Assembly: GCA_000092065.1 (NCBI GenBank)
Contig: CP000597.1
Direction: 5' to 3' (one strand)
From: Ostreococcus lucimarinus
Taxonomy: Eukaryota
DNA length: 64,000 nt
The notes beneath the pieces were generated by a model. The model had not been told where the DNA came from, ran no database searches, and saw only the letters and a list, made by a program, of their open reading frames with translations. Made by a program: the position numbers and the translations under genes. Shown here piece after piece: positions 36,343 through 44,368 of the stretch. The stretch's first letter is position 1. Every line of letters begins with the position of its first letter.

Positions 36343-36615
36343 CAACGCTTCGGCGACACCCCTTGTTGTAATGGTAGCATGAAACACGAACGCGAGCCGT
36401 CAGCGATTGAGTTTGCGCCAAGCAATCGAAACGACGCGATTTAGTGATGCGATTCAGTGATGCGATTCAGTGATGCGATGGCTAAAAAACGATGAAGTAA
36501 TGATCACTTCCGTGACAAGTCAGATAACAACTCTGAAGCTCCTCGCTTTTTTCAGCGAGAGCGTAACTACCCTCCGCTAACGGCTAATAGTAATATCGTT
36601 CCTTAGGGTAAATAT

Positions 36616-37478
36616 TTACCCTTGGACTTGGCGCTGGTCAACGGCGCACGCAGCTTCGGACGCCGGGCGGTGAGCCAAGAACGCGGAGCATTGCACTTGC
36701 TTGATGTTGTCGAAGCCAGCGACGCGGACGTAGCATTCCGGGAAGCACTTGATGCAGGTGTTGATTTCCGCAATGACTTCATCCGGGTTTTGGCAGCCGT
36801 ACATGGGGAGCTTCCACATAACCCAGTAACGGTTGTCGTAGTAACCGGCGTTGATGGAGGTGTCCATGTTCGCCCAGCCGTGGCCGTCGGTGTACGCGTG
36901 CGCGGAGTCTTCGAACTCGATGCACGGGGTCCAGCCGTTGTTCAACAAGTATTGCACTTGCTTGGAGATTTCGGCGTCGGAGAGCGGCGGCAAGAAGGAG
37001 AAGGTCTCGAACATCCTGCGTGACGACGTAAAAACGAAGCGAAATCGGTCAGTACAGCGCTCGCGCGCGTCGTTCGGACCCTCGTCGGTGACCGAGTTAA
37101 AACCCTAAAACCCAATAACCCAGCGCGCGTTCCTGACCGCACGATCGCCGCCGAACGAGCCCTCGCGCGCACCCCCCACGCCGACCCCTCGCACCGCGAT
37201 CGCGGGCGTTAAAACGTCGAAGAAGAACTTTCTTCAACGAAATATCGCCCTCGCGGCGTCGTCGAGGCGCGCGCGCGCGCGCAGAGGTCGCGCAACGTTC
37301 GCGCGATGCGGCGCTATCCTCTCGCGAAAGATACGCGAAGGTTCGATCGATCGCGCGCGTTCACGTACTTGTTGCCGTGCGGGCGCCAGATCATCATGGA
37401 CTTGGCGTTGGCGACCTTGCCGGTGGTGACGGCGACGGTCTTCGCGACTTGCGCGGAAGCTTGGGTGATGGCGGACAT
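36616..37478 (-). CDS. RBCS: Rubisco small subunit precursor, copy 1. Two exons: complement(join(36616..37015,37369..37478)). Intron 37016..37368 (GT…AG).
   Basis: Exon 2 encodes MFETFSFLPPLSDAEISKQVQYLLNNGWTPCIEFEDSAHAYTDGHGWANMDTSINAGYYDNRYWVMWKLPMYGCQNPDEVIAEINTCIKCFPECYVRVAGFDNIKQVQCSAFLAHRPASEAACAVDQRQVQG*. Exon 1 encodes the transit peptide MSAITQASAQVAKTVAVTTGKVANAKSMMIWRPHGN plus the first two bases (AA) of a codon. The AA|G junction restores …GNK-MFETF, exactly as in Chlamydomonas RbcS (…VNNKMFETFSYLPPL). Confidence 0.9.
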
Positions 37479-37741
37479 GATTGCGTGCGTGTGGATTAGT
37501 GCGGCGCGCGCGCCGCGCGCGCGCGTCGGGGCGGCGCGAGGTGCCGAATGTCCGAATCACGATCGCCCGCCCCTTAAAACGTATTCCAATCGTCTCTACA
37601 ACTATATGATTTCGATTTTGACGGGATAATCTCGACGAGATAAATTCGAGCGCGCGTTTTCGCGCGAATCGTGTGGATTTGCTGACTCGGTGCCGATCAC
37701 GCGAGGGCGTCGGCACTTTCCAGCACGCTTATCTCGAAATC
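37479..37741. promoter_or_regulatory. Shared bidirectional promoter between divergent RBCS copies 1 and 2
   Basis: 263 bp separate the two ATGs (37478 on minus, 37742 on plus). The GC-rich left half contains CCGAATGTCCGAAT at 37544..37557. The AT-rich right half (37568..37650) has TATA-like CTATATGA and GATAA elements. Confidence 0.6.
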
Positions 37742-38633
37742 ATGTCCGCCATCACCCAAGCCTCCGCGCAAGTCGCGAAGACCGTCGCCGTCACCACCGG
37801 CAAGGTCGCCAACGCCAAGTCCATGATGATCTGGCGCCCGCACGGCAACAAGTACGTGAACGCGCGCGCGCGACGGGACGCGAACGTAATCCGAAAAAGC
37901 GACGCGCGCGGATTGCTCGGCCGGTCGTGAAGAAGGGGTCTTCGAGGGGCGCGCGAGGGCGTCGTGACGCGCGCGATGAATGAAAAAGATGCCTGAAGTT
38001 TTTATGCATCGGATCGTCAGCGCGCGGTGGGCGTCGCGCGTCGACGCGAGCGTCGGCACGGGGTTCGAGTGAGCCCCCCCAGGGGGGAGGCCTCCGAGAT
38101 CCATCGTAACCGCCTTCGGAGATTTCTTCTTTAATTTTCCTCGCGACGCGTGGTTGCGCGTTGAAATCGACGGAAAACGATGCACAGAATAATTACTGAC
38201 CCGATTTCGCTTCGTTTTTACGTCGTCACGCAGGATGTTCGAGACCTTCTCCTTCTTGCCGCCGCTCTCCGACGCTGAAATCTCCAAGCAAGTGCAATAC
38301 TTGTTGAACAACGGCTGGACCCCGTGCATCGAGTTCGAAGACTCCGCGCACGCGTACACCGACGGCCACGGCTGGGCGAACATGGACACCTCCATCAACG
38401 CCGGTTACTACGACAACCGTTACTGGGTTATGTGGAAGCTCCCCATGTACGGCTGCCAAAACCCGGATGAAGTCATTGCGGAAATCAACACCTGCATCAA
38501 GTGCTTCCCGGATTGCTACGTCCGCGTCGCTGGCTTCGACAACATCAAGCAAGTGCAATGCTCCGCGTTCTTGGCTCACCGCCCGGCGTCCGAAGCTGCG
38601 TGCGCCGTTGACCAGCGCCAAGTCCAAGGGTAA
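37742..38633 (+). CDS. RBCS: Rubisco small subunit precursor, copy 2. Two exons: join(37742..37851,38234..38633). Intron 37852..38233 (GTACGT…CAG).
   Basis: Same exon structure as copy 1. The mature protein is identical to copy 3 and differs from copy 1 at one residue (CFPDCY versus CFPECY). The last ~45 nt of the intron (…cgatttcgcttcgtttttacgtcgtcacgcag) are conserved in all three copies. Confidence 0.9.
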
Positions 38634-39244
38634 ACGTCTCGACGTTTCCTGCGAACGCCCGCGCGCGTCTGTAGACGCGCGCTGCCGCGGACTCACGCTC
38701 GTGTAGAGATGTAGTCCTATTGAATTACATACGAAGACTTCACGTCACTTCACGCGTTAACGCTTCGCCCTCGCCCTCGCGCGTCGCGCATCTCCGGACG
38801 CTCTCTCTCCCTCTCGCGCGGACCGACCGCCGCGCAGCACACCCGGTCGTAACCGTTCCATTTGACCGTTCCAATCCCTTCTCGAACGCGCGCGAAGATT
38901 TTCCGAGATCGAGGACTCGCCGCGGTTCGCGACTCAAGAAATCTAGATCACGCCGTGAGATCTTCGCCCGCCGTCGTTTCCGCCACACGTTTCCGCGCCG
39001 CCGGGCGAAAATGAGGCTTTAGGGTTTACGCGCGTCGTATGGGCAAACAGTTCGCGAGCACTCTGCGTAGGCCCCCTGAAGGGGGCTTTTTCCTCTATTT
39101 TCTTACATACAGCTTACATAATTTATAATACAGAGAAGATCCCATATAAAGTACATCACGAATACGAATACGAACGCCCTCACAACCCCCTGACGCGCGC
39201 GCCGCCGCGGCCGAGCGACATAATCGCACGCGTATCTCGAGATC

Positions 39245-40364
39245 ATGTCTGCCATCACCCAAGCCTCCGCGCAAGTCGCGAAGACCGTCGCCGTCACCAC
39301 CGGCAAGGTCGCCAACGCCAAGTCCATGATGATCTGGCGCCCGCACGGCAACAAGTACGTATAGTTTACGACGTGTTTCGACGCGATCGCGCGCCGCGTC
39401 CGATCGCGCCGCATCCGACGCCCCGAGGGACGATCGTCGTCGTGTTCGCGCGCGTCCGCGCGCGCGTCGCCGACGCGATCGCGGTCGATCTCTTCGATGA
39501 TTTTCATCGCATCGATCGCGACGCGCGAAAGCGGCGCGCGCGCAACGTGGACGCGTGCGAACCGTCGATCACGGCGCGGTCGCGGGGTGATCGGATAAGC
39601 GCGAAAACCCAAACGCGAAAACCCAAACGGGAACCCGAGCGGGAATTTTCGGGTGTTTGCGTCGAACGGCGCGGCGTTCGACGATTTAGCGTGCGCGATG
39701 ATTTGTGCATCGTCGAGTCGGGCGTCGAGACGTCGAGACGTCGTCGCCGCGCGCGCGGCGGGGTCGGTCGGCGCGCGGATCATCCGTAGATTATCATCGA
39801 CCGGACGATCGGCCGTCGACCGACCTTTGAATGCTCGGCGCGGGAGGGTGTTTCGTACTCGGGTCGGACGCGGTCCACGAGCGACGTCACGGTTGGGCGA
39901 GCGTAGAAGACTCGCGCGAGCGCTGTACTGACCGATTTCGCTTCGTTTTTACGTCGTCACGCAGGATGTTCGAGACCTTCTCCTTCTTGCCGCCGCTCTC
40001 CGACGCCGAAATCTCCAAGCAAGTGCAATACTTGTTGAACAACGGCTGGACCCCGTGCATCGAGTTCGAAGACTCCGCGCACGCGTACACCGACGGCCAC
40101 GGCTGGGCGAACATGGACACCTCCATCAACGCCGGTTACTACGACAACCGTTACTGGGTTATGTGGAAGCTCCCCATGTACGGCTGCCAAAACCCGGATG
40201 AAGTCATTGCGGAAATCAACACCTGCATCAAGTGCTTCCCGGATTGCTACGTCCGCGTCGCTGGCTTCGACAACATCAAGCAAGTGCAATGCTCCGCGTT
40301 CTTGGCTCACCGCCCGGCGTCCGAAGCTGCGTGCGCCGTTGACCAGCGCCAAGTCCAAGGGTAA
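39245..40364 (+). CDS. RBCS: Rubisco small subunit precursor, copy 3. Two exons: join(39245..39354,39965..40364). Intron 39355..39964 (610 nt).
   Basis: Exon 1 is 110 nt and encodes the same transit peptide (atgtctgccatcacccaagcctcc…aacaa|gtacgt). Exon 2 is nucleotide-near-identical to copy 2. Its promoter has TATA-like elements (tttataatacag and ccatataaagtac) at 39120..39150. Confidence 0.9.
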
Positions 40365-40522: not shown

Positions 40523-41824
40523 TCAGCGAAGCTCGCCGAGCGCCGCACGCGAGAAGACTGCCCGTGTGCTCTCGTCGCCCGCGCATACCTCTGACGAACT
40601 CGAGTCGTCGGAATTTTTGCTGAAGTCTAATGGTAATGTCAGTTCTAAGTGTCTCTTCGCGCCTGAGTATTTGAATTTGAAATCAAACGTGCGTCGAGAA
40701 CGTTCACGAAGCTCGCGCTTGCCCACGACGGCGGCGCTCGGCGGCGTCCCGGTGGTTACGACCCAACTCCGCGCTCGCTCGACGTCTCGGAGCTGCATCG
40801 TCGCCAACTCGTCCTGGCTTAAAGGCTGAGCTGTGATGGGTTTATGATTCAACCAAACGTTCACGAGGAACGTCACGCGCTTAGACGACTGCGGCGTACC
40901 GCGCGCGAACTCACTCGGGGCGCCGTGCAAGAACCGTCCGTCAAATGTGATTTGCTTCCCCCACTTTGGCCACGAAACGACGCACTCGGTGATATCACCG
41001 CACACCCCGACGTCGCCGTTTTCGTAATCACAATTCACCTTCGTCGGACGGTTCACGACCACCGTCGGCGTCCCTCCGTCGCAAAAGTACGTCACCGTGC
41101 CGAGTTGCGGATGCGCGTTGACGCCCGCGCCCTCGAGGGCGTAGTCTTTGTCCCAGTGCCACCCGATCTCATCACCCTCATCGATGACTTGCGTCCACCA
41201 CTCGGCGCCCGATTTCGAGGGATCATACCTCGCTCTCTCGTCTTCGTCGCGCGCGCCGGCGTCTCGTTCCGCGCGCGCCGCGGCTTCGCGCGTCGCCCTT
41301 CGAAACGTCTCTCGCGCTAAATACTCGAGCGCGCACCTCGGTTCGCTCTCGGCGTTCACCCAAAACGTCCTCCCACTCGACGTCCCGCTCGTCCTTCTCT
41401 TCCCTCTCGCATTTTTCGCCGTGTGCGCCGCCTCGCAATCCTTCGTCAACCGCCTCGCGTCGTCGTCGTCGAGCGCGTCTCGCCCCGCGAACGTCGTCGC
41501 GCTCGTCGTCTCGTACGTCAGGTATCGGTTCACTTCGCACGCGATTCGTCCGAGTTCATCCACCGCGAGTTCGAGCTCGGACGTCGCGCTCGCGTCGTCG
41601 TCGCTCTCGTCGCTCTCGTCGCTCTCGCTCTCGCTCTCGCTCTCGCTCGTCGTCGCCTCGCGCGCGTCGTTCGCGCGCCTCGTCCGTCGCGTCGTCATCC
41701 GCGCCTCGTCGTCGCGTCGTCGACGTCGCGCGTTCGCCGCCCCGCGTCGCGCGCGCCGGTCGCCCGACGCGCGACGGGCGTCGCGCGTTCGCCGCGTCGA
41801 CGGCCGCCGGGCTCGAGCGCGCAA
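40523..41824 (-). CDS. Hypothetical protein with a 2OG-Fe(II)-oxygenase/cupin-like HxD…H arrangement
   Basis: …IGWHWDKDYALEGAGVNAHPQLGTVTYFCDGGTPTVVVNRPTKVN…ITFDGRFLHGAP…RVTFLVNVWLNHKP…. The N-terminus has an acidic SESESESDESDESDDD tract. The first ATG after the low-complexity region is near 41698. Confidence 0.45.
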   Translation of the reverse strand: MRARARRPSTRRTRDARRASGDRRARRGAANARRRRRDDEARMTTRRTRRANDAREATTSESESESESDESDESDDDASATSELELAVDELGRIACEVNRYLTYETTSATTFAGRDALDDDDARRLTKDCEAAHTAKNARGKRRTSGTSSGRTFWVNAESEPRCALEYLARETFRRATREAAARAERDAGARDEDERARYDPSKSGAEWWTQVIDEGDEIGWHWDKDYALEGAGVNAHPQLGTVTYFCDGGTPTVVVNRPTKVNCDYENGDVGVCGDITECVVSWPKWGKQITFDGRFLHGAPSEFARGTPQSSKRVTFLVNVWLNHKPITAQPLSQDELATMQLRDVERARSWVVTTGTPPSAAVVGKRELRERSRRTFDFKFKYSGAKRHLELTLPLDFSKNSDDSSSSEVCAGDESTRAVFSRAALGELR

Positions 41825-41890
41825 GCGGACCCGAATACCACTAAAGCGTAGCGCTGTATACTCATACCCGAATGTCCGAACATCCGCGTG
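41821..41890 (+). promoter_or_regulatory. Conserved 70-bp TATA-containing promoter module, copy A, upstream of the phosphate transporter gene
   Basis: gcaagcggacccgaataccactaaagcgtagcgctgtatactcatacccgaatgtccgaacatccgcgtg. It is about 90% identical to copy B at 44206..44274. It contains TGTATACTCATA and the CCGAATGTCCGAA motif, and ends 240 bp upstream of the PiT ATG. Confidence 0.5.
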
Positions 41891-42129
41891 AAAGTGCTAC
41901 ACTTTGTCAGGAAAATGTCGATTCACAGTCGATTCACAGTTGATGAACATTGCAACAAGTTGCAAAAATCGAGTTCGATTGGAACCAATCGCGTCTTCTT
42001 TCGAGGTTCACGAACCGTGAATTCGTTCCGCGAGGAATATTCTCGGAATCTCGCCTTTTCAAATTCCCGCGTGGGAATATGCGCAGTCGCCGCAAGAACA
42101 CGTCGCGCGCCGTCTCGTCACGCACAACG

Positions 42130-43879
42130 ATGAGCTCTTCGGATGCGCTCGCTCAAGCGTCCCGCCACCTTTTGGCCGGCGCTACTGAAACCAAGAGATT
42201 CGAATGGATCGTCGTTTGCGGCGGTTTCCTCGCCTTCTTCGCCGCCTTTGGCATCGGTACGCACACGATGCGCGCACTTTTTACCTTTCGCGTTCATAGG
42301 CTTTAATGACACGGCTTGGTCGCACACGTGCGATTGGAGTGTATTAGAAGCATCACTGACGTCGTGCGATCAATCGTATTTACCTACAGGTGCCAACGAC
42401 GTCGCGAATGCGTTCGCCACCTCTGTCGGGTCCGGCGCGTTGACCATTAAAAACGCTGTAGTCCTCGCCGCGATCTTTGAATTCTGTGGTGCCATGTTCA
42501 TGGGCGGTCACGTCGTCAACACAATTCGCAAGGGCATTGCTAACCAGAAATGCTTCGCCGGTACCGGTGGTGCCAACGATCCCGGCCTCTTGATGTACGG
42601 CTGCCTATGCGTCATTTTTGCCGTCGCCATCTGGCTCGTCGTCGCATCTGCCTTCGAAATGGCCGTCTCCACGACGCACTCGTGCGTTGGTGGTATGATT
42701 GGAATGACTTTGGTCGCGCGTGGTAGCGAGTGTGTCATTTGGACCAAGAAAGCGGACGAATTCCCGTACGTCAAAGGCGTCGTCGCCGTCATCATCTCCT
42801 GGCTCTTGTCCCCGGTCATCTCTGGCGCCTTTGCGTTCGTCTTCTTCGTGACCCTGCGTACTCTCGTCATGCGTTCCGAACATTCTTATTCTCGTACTGC
42901 CGTCGCGTTCCCAGTGTTGCTTGCGTGCACTCTCATCATCAACATCTTCTTCATCGTGTACAAGGGCGCCAAGTTCCTTGAGCTCGACGACACACCGGTC
43001 GGTACGGCGTGCGCCATCGCGTTCGGCATCGGCGGAGGATGTGGCATTGTTGCGTACTTCTTCGTTACCCCTTACATCCTCAAGACGACCGATGAGCTCT
43101 TCGAGAAGCAACAGCTCGAAAAGGCGGAGCGTGGTTCGGGCAAGAAGGCCGAAGAGAAGGTCGTCCGTCAACCGCGCGAGTATCCTGTCGGGGTCTTTGG
43201 CGCGCCGCGTCGCATGTGGTACGCTCTGCAAGATCATCTTGAATCTTCACTCACCCACAAGGCTGAAGACATTCTTGACGAAGACATGGCTGTATTGGCG
43301 ATCCACGAAAACGCCGAAAAGTTTGACGAAAAGACTGAACTTTGCATGCGATACTTGCAAATCCTCACCGCGTGCTGCGACTCGTTCGCGCACGGCGCCA
43401 ACGATGTGGCCAACTCTATCGGTCCCTTCGCCTCTATGGTAGTCGTCTTCAAGAGCGGTAAAGTTTCGAAGGAAGCTGAAATGGGCGACGATTCATATTG
43501 GATTCTCGGTCTTGGCGCTGCCGGCATCGTCTGTGGCCTCGCCTTGTACGGCTACAAGATTCTTCACGCTCTCGGTACCAAGATTGCCAAGCTCACCCCG
43601 AGTCGCGGTATCTGCATCGAGCTTGGTGCGGCTTGCGTCATCATCATGGGATCCCGTCTCGGCTGGCCGCTGTCTACCACTCACTGCCAAGTTGGTGCCA
43701 CCGTCGGCGTCGCCCTACTCGAAGGCCGCAAGGGCATCAACTGGTTCATCATCGGTAAAACTGTGTTCGGCTGGATCATCACCCTCGTCATCGTCGGCTT
43801 CTCCACGGCGGCGTTCTTCGCACAAGGTGCCTACGCTCCGATGAAGAGCTACCCGTGCTACATCACAGGTAGTTGCTAA
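42130..43879 (+). CDS. PiT/PHO4-family Na+/H+-coupled inorganic phosphate transporter. Two exons: join(42130..42256,42390..43879). Intron 42257..42389.
   Basis: Exon 1 encodes MSSSDALAQASRHLLAGATETKRFEWIVVCGGFLAFFAAFGIG and ends …ATCG|gtacgc. Exon 2 begins after …tacctacag|GTGCCAACGAC and restores the PiT signature GANDVANAFATSVGSGALT (phase-1 intron). A second PiT repeat GANDVANSIGPFAS lies near the C-terminal half. The track splits the gene into ORFs 41950..42306 and 42143..43879. Confidence 0.9.
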
Positions 43880-44205
43880 ATGGGCCCTCCTAGCTTACCC
43901 CCTCCCTAGGTTACCCCCGACGGAGTTATTCTTTGAATACTCTCGGTGTTTTTCCCGCTATTGATAGCGATGAGATTCTCGACAAATTCGCGTTCAGTGG
44001 GGTCTGAAAATTTGCCGTCGCCCACGAGAGCGTCGAATTGCTCCGCCAACGTCCGTCGAATTGCTCCGCCAACGTCAGCGATGGCGCGCCTGTGCGAGAG
44101 AATTCAGACTCAACAATACTTCGCGCGCGCGCTGTTTTGGTTCCAACCGGAGCCGCACGGATCAATTGCACACCGCGTAATCGCCCTGAGTGGTATCGAT
44201 ACCAC

Positions 44206-44274
44206 GCAAGCGGACCCAAATACCACTAAAGCATAGTACTATATACTCATATCCGAATGTCCGAACATCCGCGC
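44206..44274 (+). promoter_or_regulatory. Conserved 70-bp TATA-containing promoter module, copy B, upstream of the PNPOx-like gene
   Basis: gcaagcggacccaaataccactaaagcatagtactatatactcatatccgaatgtccgaacatccgcgcg. It contains CTATATACTCATA, a TATA box, and CCGAATGTCCGAA. It ends about 95 bp upstream of the ATG at 44369. Confidence 0.5.
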
Positions 44275-44368
44275 GATTCCCGCCGCGATTCGCCGCGATT
44301 CGCCGCGACTCCGCGACGCGCGCGACGACGGACGGCGAACGACGCCTCGAGACGACGGCGCGCGCGCG

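What the first reader, a model, noticed from the sequence alone, without database searches (positions are those of the whole stretch)
37479..37741. A 263-bp shared bidirectional promoter drives two divergent RBCS copies
Only 263 bp separate the start codons of two of the most highly expressed genes in a photosynthetic cell. The interval has a GC-rich half carrying the CCGAATGTCCGAAT motif. Its AT-rich half (37568..37650) has TATA-like and GATA-like elements that could serve either orientation. It is a compact natural bidirectional promoter, of potential use as a strong two-way expression cassette.
Basis: seen in the sequence. Interest (0 to 1): 0.55.

Follow-up and report, generated by a model that had tools for sequence, protein, structure and literature searches.

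The report
Back-to-back RBCS promoters in Ostreococcus
Two almost identical Rubisco small-subunit genes of a tiny marine green alga (Ostreococcus) point away from each other and start transcription only about 214 bp apart: a real divergent promoter region, but an ordinary one for this very compact genome.

Summary
Two divergent two-exon RBCS genes (A, minus strand; B, plus strand) have start codons exactly 263 bp apart, at 37479..37741. A third copy, C, lies in tandem 1.5 kb downstream. The B/C protein is identical to Ostreococcus lucimarinus XP_001422165.1.

Spliced metatranscriptome contigs end in 3-5 untemplated, G-rich bases followed by ACTAATCC (A type) or ATAATCGC (C type). This puts the start sites at a conserved initiator-like CA: 37500 for A, about 37715 for B (inferred) and 39220 for C. 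Both start sites of the pair therefore lie inside the interval, 214 bp apart, with 5' UTRs of 22-27 nt.

No TATA box sits at -30. The TATA-like hexamer is over 100 bp from either start site and is not conserved in the nearest relative.

The flagged motif CCGAATGTCCGAA is real: 3 exact copies in the window against 0.025 expected. It lies -44..-57 from A's start site, and B and C carry their own CGAAT elements at a similar distance.

The A(-)/B(+) layout is conserved in Ostreococcus and Micromonas, but the spacers range from 263 to 1277 bp. Divergent gaps of 11-609 bp are the norm in this window.

Best reading: two separate initiator-type promoters back to back, sharing only the central AT-rich block. 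This is a new member of a known kind, of modest interest.

The parts
36616..37478 (-). RBCS copy A: exon 1 37369..37478, intron 37016..37368 (353 nt), exon 2 36616..37015
   Evidence: tblastn and splice-site reading. The A-specific 3' UTR is present in spliced cDNA contigs L009, L091 and L094.
37479..37500 (-). 5' UTR of A (22 nt). The start site is the A at 37500 on the minus strand, within GCCGCA+1CTAATCC, which matches the initiator consensus BBCA+1BW.
   Evidence: cDNA contig L093 begins GGCG + ACTAATCCACACGCACGCAATC-ATG; its first 4 nt do not match the genome. The motif is conserved in 54 distinct RBCS upstream sequences. The consensus is from PMC5287114.
37501..37543 (.). GC-rich (CG)n stretch immediately upstream of A's start site; no TATA box
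   Evidence: Sequence. Homologous to the stretch upstream of C's start site (CCCCGACGCGCGCGC).
37544..37557 (+). CCGAATGTCCGAAT tandem motif, -44..-57 from A's start site and -158..-171 from B's
   Evidence: 3 exact 13-mer copies in the window against 0.025 expected. Conserved next to copy A in L019, L027, L028 and L089; the orientation is flipped in L028.
37568..37650 (.). AT-rich centre (40% GC), -68..-150 from A's start site and -65..-147 from B's. Contains CCAATC 37586..37591 and TATATG 37603..37608.
   Evidence: The 37588..37610 part is not conserved in L019. An AT trough is present in the RBCS spacers of most Ostreococcus and Micromonas lineages (60-nt minimum 0.27-0.48), and lies next to A in the Ostreococcus ones.
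37624..37643 (+). GGATAATC and a second GATAA, embracing the palindrome ATCTCGACGAGAT (37629..37641); I-box-like
   Evidence: Identical in L019 although the neighbouring sequence has diverged. GGATAATC is unique in the 64-kb window and recurs in the L002 spacer; GGATAAT recurs in the Micromonas spacers L062 and L087.
37665..37688 (+). B-proximal elements: CGAATC (37665..37670, -45..-50 from B's start site), CGTGTGGATT (37670..37679, a direct repeat of 37488..37497) and GCTGACTC (37681..37688)
   Evidence: The block is conserved in L019, L002 and L027 at varying distances from B.
37715..37741 (+). 5' UTR of B (27 nt). The inferred start site is the A at 37715, within TCGGCA+1CTTTCC, which matches BBCA+1BW.
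   Evidence: Transcript-derived proteins P0026 and P0169 begin M-GTFQHAYLEI-MSAIT, that is, one codon upstream of ACT at 37715. No longer B-type extension appeared among the listed hits. The site is homologous to the mapped A and C initiators.
37742..38633 (+). RBCS copy B: exon 1 37742..37851, intron 37852..38233 (382 nt), exon 2 38234..38633
   Evidence: The B-specific 3' UTR is present in cDNA contigs L090, L095 and L097.
39094..39244 (+). Promoter of copy C, with no divergent partner: AT-rich block (25% GC minimum at 39094), CGAATACGAATACGAAC at 39159..39175, GC-rich stretch, start site at 39220 (minor site at 39218), 25-nt 5' UTR
   Evidence: Nine cDNA contigs (L090-L092, L095-L100). Six begin with G-rich untemplated bases + ATAATCGC; L092 and L098 read ATAATAATCGC; L090 begins CGG + ACATAATCGC. 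Composition; motif.
39245..40364 (+). RBCS copy C: exon 1 39245..39354, intron 39355..39964 (610 nt), exon 2 39965..40364

Best explanation
The 263-bp interval holds two separate, TATA-less, initiator-type RNA polymerase II promoters placed back to back, one for each of two RBCS paralogs kept nearly identical by gene conversion. Each gene starts at the A of a conserved BBCA+1BW-like initiator, 22 nt (A) or 27 nt (B) upstream of its ATG. Each has its own CGAAT-type upstream element about 45-65 nt before the start site; the flagged CCGAATGTCCGAAT belongs to A. In this species the spacer has shrunk so far that the AT-rich block, with its GGATAATC/GATAA pair, lies about 65-150 nt upstream of both start sites. 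In relatives that block lies next to A only. It is the one part that could be shared in function. Shown here: the gene structures; the start site of A (one contig) and of C (nine contigs); that all three copies are transcribed; the recurrence of the motifs; and the conservation of the layout. Inferred: the exact start site of B; that the motifs bind factors; and whether any element acts on both genes.
For: Start sites: spliced cDNA contigs L090-L100 begin with 3-5 untemplated, G-rich bases and then ACTAATCC (A type) or ATAATCGC (C type). Proteins P0026, P0169 and P0023 begin one codon upstream of the same CA, and the G in P0023 fits untemplated GGG rather than the genomic GAC. The initiator-like motif is conserved in all 54 distinct RBCS upstream sequences from Ostreococcus, Bathycoccus and Micromonas. 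CGAAT/ATTCG hits cluster between -41 and -80 from the predicted start site: 16 of 24 hits, in 10 of 18 non-redundant upstream sequences, against a window background of 2.4 per kb. Copy C shows the same order of elements (AT block, CGAAT repeats, GC-rich stretch, initiator) without a divergent partner. The proximal regions of A and C are homologous to each other, while B's differs. In other Ostreococcus lineages the AT trough lies 72-107 bp from A's ATG but 295-415 bp from B's, and spacers range from 263 to 1277 bp. A 119-bp promoter is sufficient in O. tauri (PMC3236181). Footprinting in Ostreococcus suggested that bidirectional regulatory elements are less frequent than in yeast (Piganeau 2009, as cited in PMC2850359).
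Against: No functional data exist. In this species the two start sites are only 214 bp apart and the AT-rich block is equidistant from both, so sharing by geometry cannot be excluded. B's start site rests on two translated transcripts, not on nucleotide sequence. A's start site rests on a single contig (L093). The upstream sequences used for the motif statistics are related by descent, so the counts are not independent. Contig L089, which is spliced yet runs 297 nt upstream of the ATG, could reflect rare upstream initiation.
Confidence: 0.6

Rival explanations
1. This is a truly integrated bidirectional promoter. The central AT-rich block with the GATAA pair, and possibly the CCGAAT motif, acts as one common upstream activating or nucleosome-free region that drives and co-regulates A and B together.
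For: The start sites are 214 bp apart, and the AT block is -68..-150 from A and -65..-147 from B. AT troughs are rare in divergent regions of this genome, 2 of 11. GGATAATC is conserved across lineages. The CCGAAT motif occurs in either orientation in relatives, so it could act regardless of orientation. The head-to-head layout has been kept since before Ostreococcus and Micromonas split.
Against: Spacer length is not conserved, ranging from 263 to 1277 bp. In relatives the AT block and the motif lie next to A only. B and C have their own proximal elements, and C works without a partner. The spacer is no more conserved than the intron.
Confidence: 0.25
2. These are TATA-driven promoters. The TATA-like sequences in the AT-rich centre (TATATG at 37603, ATAAAT at 37640, TTTTAA on the minus strand at 37574..37579) position RNA polymerase II, one for each direction.
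For: A/T hexamers lie at a similar distance, about -70 to -79, from all three start sites. C has a canonical TATAAA at 39145..39150.
Against: The distance of 70-110 nt is far from the canonical 25-35 nt. The 40 nt upstream of each start site are GC-rich. TATATG is not conserved in L019, and the distance from ATAA(A/T)T to the start site changes by 11 nt there. In L002 the AT block is about 270-335 nt from B's start site.
Confidence: 0.07
3. The head-to-head layout is only the scar of an ancient inverted duplication, preserved because gene conversion and selection act on the coding parts. The spacer has no regulatory organisation beyond two minimal initiators.
For: Paralogs evolve in concert: exon 2 is 99-100% identical within a species against 85-90% between species. 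Identity tracts stop 7-19 nt upstream of the ATG. Most of the spacer cannot be aligned between lineages.
Against: Short motifs recur across lineages that are otherwise unalignable, and in other promoters of the window: CCGAATGTCCGAA, GGATAAT and GCTGA(C/G)TC. The AT trough is a conserved compositional feature.
Confidence: 0.08

Closest known systems
Bidirectional promoters of head-to-head gene pairs (operational definition: divergent start sites less than 1 kb apart), which are very common in Ostreococcus
   Same: The genes are on opposite strands, the start sites are 214 bp apart, and both genes are expressed. PMC4035068 counts 2288 bidirectional transcript pairs (3884 transcripts) in O. tauri. 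PMC2850359 and PMC3236181 give mean intergenic regions below 200 bp.
   Different: Here the two partners are paralogs that encode the same protein and are homogenised by gene conversion. No shared element has been demonstrated.
Light-responsive RBCS promoters of land plants (I-box GATAAG, G-box CACGTG, TATA box at -30); recalled from the plant literature, not tested here beyond motif searches
   Same: It is an RBCS promoter with a conserved GGATAA-type element upstream.
   Different: The core reads GATAAT or GATAAA rather than GATAAG. There is no G-box in the interval and no TATA at -30. The 5' UTR is very short (22-27 nt) and initiation is at an initiator.
Initiator-dependent, TATA-less core promoters (human initiator consensus BBCA+1BW, PMC5287114)
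   Same: The mapped 5' ends fall on the A of GCA+1CT (A, B) or ACA+1TA (C). A and B match BBCA+1BW at 6 of 6 positions and C at 5 of 6.
   Different: Binding by TFIID or any other factor is untested in this alga. The motif extends into a conserved downstream CAC(G)C that is not part of the metazoan consensus.
The 119-bp HAPT promoter of O. tauri and other short algal promoters used for expression (PMC3236181, PMC7200600)
   Same: It is a compact native promoter of a highly expressed gene in Mamiellales and could serve as an expression tool.
   Different: The HAPT promoter is unidirectional, regulated by phosphate and carries a P1BS element. The RBCS spacer has never been tested.

Membership tests
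Bidirectional promoter (head-to-head pair) | Two genes on opposite strands, transcribed away from each other | tested here: met
   Copy A is on the minus strand and copy B on the plus strand. Gene models come from tblastn and splice sites.
Bidirectional promoter (head-to-head pair) | Start sites less than 1 kb apart and not overlapping | tested here: met
   Start site of A at 37500 (L093). Start site of B at about 37715 (P0026, P0169 and homology). They are 214 bp apart. B's site is inferred, not read from nucleotide sequence.
Bidirectional promoter (head-to-head pair) | Both genes are actually expressed | tested here: met
   A-type and B-type UTRs are both present in spliced metatranscriptome contigs and proteins.
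Bidirectional promoter (head-to-head pair) | Shared cis-elements, or one fragment that drives reporters in both orientations | not testable with these tools
   This needs reporter and deletion assays. Comparative data lean towards separate proximal promoters.
Plant-type RBCS light-responsive promoter | I-box core GATAAG | tested here: not met
   The interval has GATAAT (37625) and GATAAA (37639), with no GATAAG. The related GGATAAT is nevertheless conserved across lineages.
Plant-type RBCS light-responsive promoter | G-box CACGTG | tested here: not met
   Absent from 37479..37741. It is present in some relatives, for example L002 and L062.
TATA-box promoter | TATA element 25-35 nt upstream of the start site | tested here: not met
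   The 40 nt upstream of all three start sites are GC-rich. The nearest A/T hexamers are 70 nt or more away.
Initiator-type core promoter | Start site on the A of BBCA+1BW | tested here: met
   A and B match 6 of 6 positions and C matches 5 of 6. The 5' ends of the cDNA contigs fall on that A (consensus from PMC5287114).
RBCS (Rubisco small subunit, PF00101) | Sequence membership of the flanking genes | tested here: met
   All hits carry PF00101. The B/C protein is identical to XP_001422165.1 of O. lucimarinus CCE9901.

The most novel reading that the evidence does not exclude
CCGAATGTCCGAA (with GGATAAT and the BBCA+1BW-CAC initiator) may be part of an undescribed cis-regulatory code of Mamiellales. 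It would tie RBCS to other chloroplast-related or highly regulated genes: in this window, the promoter next to a PHO4 transporter cassette, a CREG/DUF2470 gene and an ABA4-like gene. The O. lucimarinus spacer would then be a natural minimal two-way module built from these elements.
Probability: 0.3. Interest if true: 0.45.

Novelty: new member of a known kind. Interest (0 to 1): 0.27.

Why it matters
Genetic tools for Ostreococcus and its relatives rely on very few promoters: HAPT, histone H4, RPS9 and H3 (PMC7200600). A mapped 214-bp region that fires two strongly expressed genes in opposite directions is a reasonable candidate for a compact two-gene expression cassette. The start sites and the conserved initiator give precise fusion points. 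In biological terms the locus shows paralogs whose coding parts are homogenised by gene conversion while their promoters diverge. It also offers a few short, testable motifs for regulation of RBCS in the smallest free-living eukaryotes. None of this overturns current knowledge.

Tried and rejected
(1) TATA boxes. No TATA lies at -30 of any start site. The central TATATG is not conserved in L019.

(2) Footprinting with exact 8-mers against ten lineages gave coverage above shuffles (941 against 530). It was dominated by (GC)n low complexity and was not informative about position.

(3) Whole-spacer constraint. The spacer is 87% identical to L019, against 92% for the intron and 89% for the B-C intergenic region, so there is no excess conservation.

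(4) I considered that Bathycoccus differs by inversion of a PrpD-A block. This is rejected: the gene between its RBCS copies is the homolog of window gene 40523..41698, not PrpD.

(5) cDNA contigs L009 and L094 are chimeras, with only 7-9 nt of RBCS 5' UTR fused to foreign sequence.

(6) L089 is spliced yet contiguous with the spacer and PrpD, so it is ambiguous. It may be a mixed assembly of DNA and RNA reads, or rare upstream initiation.

(7) Reading CGAATC as a LUX-type GATTCG site, or the motif as a heat-shock element. Both rest on memory only and neither fits: other copies read CCGAAC, and the GAA spacing is wrong.

(8) An Rfam scan of the window found no RNA family.

SRR1179203 was not found in the literature. 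A second protein search gave no named organism.

(10) The bacterial promoter/terminator scanner was not used because this is a eukaryotic nuclear locus.

Full report
OBSERVATION. The window has 63% GC. It carries three copies of the Rubisco small-subunit gene, each with two exons (110 + 400 nt) and one phase-2 intron (GTACGT...CAG).
- Copy A is on the minus strand: exon 1 37369..37478, exon 2 36616..37015.
- Copy B is on the plus strand: exon 1 37742..37851, exon 2 38234..38633.
- Copy C is on the plus strand: exon 1 39245..39354, exon 2 39965..40364.

The interval between the ATG codons of A and B is 37479..37741, exactly 263 bp. CCGAATGTCCGAAT is at 37544..37557. GC content is 73% for 37479..37567, 40% for 37568..37650 and 59% for 37651..37741.

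ORGANISM. The B/C protein is identical to XP_001422165.1 of Ostreococcus lucimarinus CCE9901 (P0166). Gene density is about one gene per 1.6 kb, which also fits Ostreococcus. Metagenome contigs L013, L014, L016 and L017 carry the same spacer (264-266 bp) with a few SNPs and indels.

THE CODING PARTS ARE HOMOGENISED, THE PROMOTERS ARE NOT. The three coding sequences differ at 1-3 of 510 nt. Near-identity stops 7 nt (A/B) or 19 nt (B/C) upstream of the ATG, about 20 nt into the intron and 1 nt after the stop codon.

Exon 2 of paralogs within one species is 99-100% identical. Genes at the same syntenic position in different species are 85-90% identical. Yet the layout PrpD(+) A(-) B(+) [C(+)] is shared by Ostreococcus and Micromonas loci. 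This is concerted evolution by gene conversion. Three different promoters drive what is in effect one protein.

START SITES. Public assemblies hold spliced, and therefore RNA-derived, contigs of this gene.
- Nine contigs have the C-type leader. Six begin with GGGG, CGGGG, GGGGG, or an adapter remnant plus GCCG, followed by ATAATCGCACGC. Two (L092, L098) read ATAATAATCGC after the untemplated bases. One begins CGG + ACATAATCGC.
- One contig (L093) has the A-type leader and begins GGCG + ACTAATCCACACGCACGCAATC-ATG.

The first 3-5 bases do not match the genome: GCGAC precedes ATAATC in the C gene and GCCGC precedes ACTAATC in the A gene. Untemplated G-rich bases at the 5' end are what reverse transcription adds at a capped end (established knowledge from CAGE and template-switching libraries). 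These ends therefore mark start sites: A at 37500 (5' UTR 22 nt) and C at 39220 (5' UTR 25 nt, with a minor site at 39218).

For B no nucleotide contig was found. Two transcript-derived proteins (P0026, P0169) begin M-GTFQHAYLEI-MSAIT, one codon upstream of ACT at 37715. P0023 (C type) begins M-G-IIAR, where the genome would give D. That fits untemplated GGG + ATAATC. A Bathycoccus-type protein (P0010) shows the same pattern. I therefore place B's start site at 37715 (5' UTR 27 nt). This is an inference.

Both start sites of the pair lie inside the flagged interval, 214 bp apart.

INITIATOR. An alignment of the last 48 nt before the ATG from 54 distinct RBCS upstream sequences shows one conserved element, (B)(B)CA(C/T)(T/A)..., followed within a few bases by CAC(G)C. 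The loci were assigned to Ostreococcus lineages, Bathycoccus prasinos and Micromonas including M. pusilla. The mapped 5' ends fall on its A. A and B match the human initiator consensus BBCA+1BW (PMC5287114) at 6 of 6 positions, and C at 5 of 6.

The 40 nt upstream of each start site are GC-rich, so there is no TATA box at the canonical distance. The TATA-like TATATG (37603..37608) is 103-112 nt from both start sites. In the nearest other lineage (L019) it reads GATGTG.

UPSTREAM ELEMENTS. The 13-mer CCGAATGTCCGAA occurs 3 times exactly in the window against 0.025 expected, and 5 times against 0.19 with one mismatch allowed. Two of these copies lie in a 72-nt direct repeat (see below), so about three sites are independent.

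In the spacer the motif lies -44..-57 from A's start site. It is kept next to A in L019, L027 (TCCGAATGTTCGAA) and L028/L089 (CCGAATGTCCGAT, in the opposite orientation). B has a single CGAATC at -45..-50, and C has CGAATACGAATACGAAC at about -45..-61. The B copy of lineage L002 has three CGAATCGA units at a similar distance.

Over 18 non-redundant Ostreococcus upstream sequences, 16 of 24 CGAAT/ATTCG hits fall between -41 and -80 of the predicted start site. These sequences are related by descent, so this is suggestive rather than a clean statistic.

GGATAATC (37624) is unique in the 64-kb window and is identical in L019. It recurs in the L002 spacer and, as GGATAAT, in two Micromonas spacers. 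GCTGA(C/G)TC (37681) recurs in L002 and L027.

IS THE PROMOTER SHARED? In favour: the AT-rich block is equidistant from the two start sites (-68..-150 and -65..-147). Such AT troughs are unusual in divergent intergenic regions of this genome, occurring in 2 of 11.

Against:
- The head-to-head pair is conserved, but with spacers of 263-266 bp (this species), 309, about 335, 454-461 and 547 bp (other Ostreococcus lineages) and 581-1277 bp (Micromonas).
- In the other Ostreococcus lineages the AT trough is 72-107 bp from A's ATG and 295-415 bp from B's.
- Copy C has the same order of elements without a partner.
- Bathycoccus has all copies in tandem.
- The spacer as a whole is no better conserved between this species and L019 (87%) than the intron (92%) or the B-C intergenic region (89%).
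- A 119-bp promoter suffices in O. tauri (PMC3236181).
- Footprinting suggested that bidirectional regulatory elements are less frequent in Ostreococcus than in yeast (Piganeau 2009, cited in PMC2850359).

I conclude that there are two separate initiator-type promoters back to back. In this species spacer shrinkage has made them overlap in their distal AT-rich part.

CONTEXT AND NOVELTY. ORF-based divergent gaps in this window are 11-609 bp, with a median of about 184 bp. About half of O. tauri transcripts sit in bidirectional pairs (PMC4035068). A 263-bp divergent spacer is therefore ordinary here.

I found no paper describing this RBCS pair or its promoter. Promoters used in Mamiellales are HAPT, H4, RPS9 and H3 (PMC7200600). 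The finding is a new member of a known kind, with modest practical interest as a compact two-way cassette.

LIMITS. There are no stranded read data, no reporter data, and no direct nucleotide evidence for B's 5' end. A's start site rests on one contig. The motif statistics rest on related sequences.

Noticed in passing
window 41820..44276: A PHO4-family phosphate transporter gene (42143..43879, PF01384) lies in a 2.39-kb segment bounded by a 72-nt direct repeat (41820..41891 and 44205..44276, 90% identical). Environmental contig L011, 98% identical to the window, runs straight from 41822 to 44211 without this segment. This is a presence/absence polymorphism of a gene that prasinoviruses also carry (PMC3236181).
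   Followed up: partly
window 41868, 44253, 53075, 53186; L011 2502; L045 2778: The RBCS-spacer motif CCGAATGTCCGAA recurs in other promoter regions: in both copies of the 72-nt repeat, twice (imperfectly) at the start of an ABA4-like gene, and as three tandem units in L011. There are 3 exact copies against 0.025 expected.
   Followed up: partly
window 36616..40364 and loci L002, L028, L062, L073: The three RBCS paralogs evolve in concert: 99-100% identical within a species against 85-90% between species. The gene order PrpD(+) A(-) B(+) C(+) followed by a minus-strand gene predates the split of Ostreococcus and Micromonas. Conversion tracts end 7-19 nt upstream of the ATG.
   Followed up: yes
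window 37100..37123 and 39017..39027: Telomere-type repeats are present: AAACCCTAAAACCC inside the intron of copy A, and TTTAGGGTTTA about 200 nt upstream of C's start site. They resemble plant telo-boxes.
   Followed up: no
window 39070..39092 and 38075..38088: GC hairpins are present: GGCCCCCTGAAGGGGGC followed by TTTTT between B and C, and CCCCCCCAGGGGGG in B's intron. CCCCTG/CAGGGG and CCCCCT/AGGGGG are over-represented in RBCS upstream regions of several lineages (6 of 17 against 0.6-0.7 expected).
   Followed up: no
window 36433..36479: A 13-nt tandem repeat (GATGCGATTCAGT, about 3.5 copies) lies in the convergent region between the 3' ends of PrpD and RBCS-A.
   Followed up: no
window 37488..37497 and 37670..37679: There is an exact 10-nt direct repeat, CGTGTGGATT. 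The first copy is in A's 5' UTR (read as AATCCACACG). The second is 36-45 nt upstream of B's start site, where the minus strand reads GCAAATCCACACG and resembles A's initiator region. It could be a cryptic upstream start for the A direction.
   Followed up: no
whole window, intergenic regions: AT-rich troughs mark convergent (3'-end) intergenic regions (28-55% GC). Divergent, promoter-only regions are GC-rich (67-78% GC), except the RBCS spacer and 41699..42142.
   Followed up: partly
loci L003, L056, L067 (Bathycoccus prasinos): In Bathycoccus the RBCS copies are all in tandem. The unit 'RBCS(+) plus the homolog of window gene 40523..41698(-)' is itself duplicated.
   Followed up: partly
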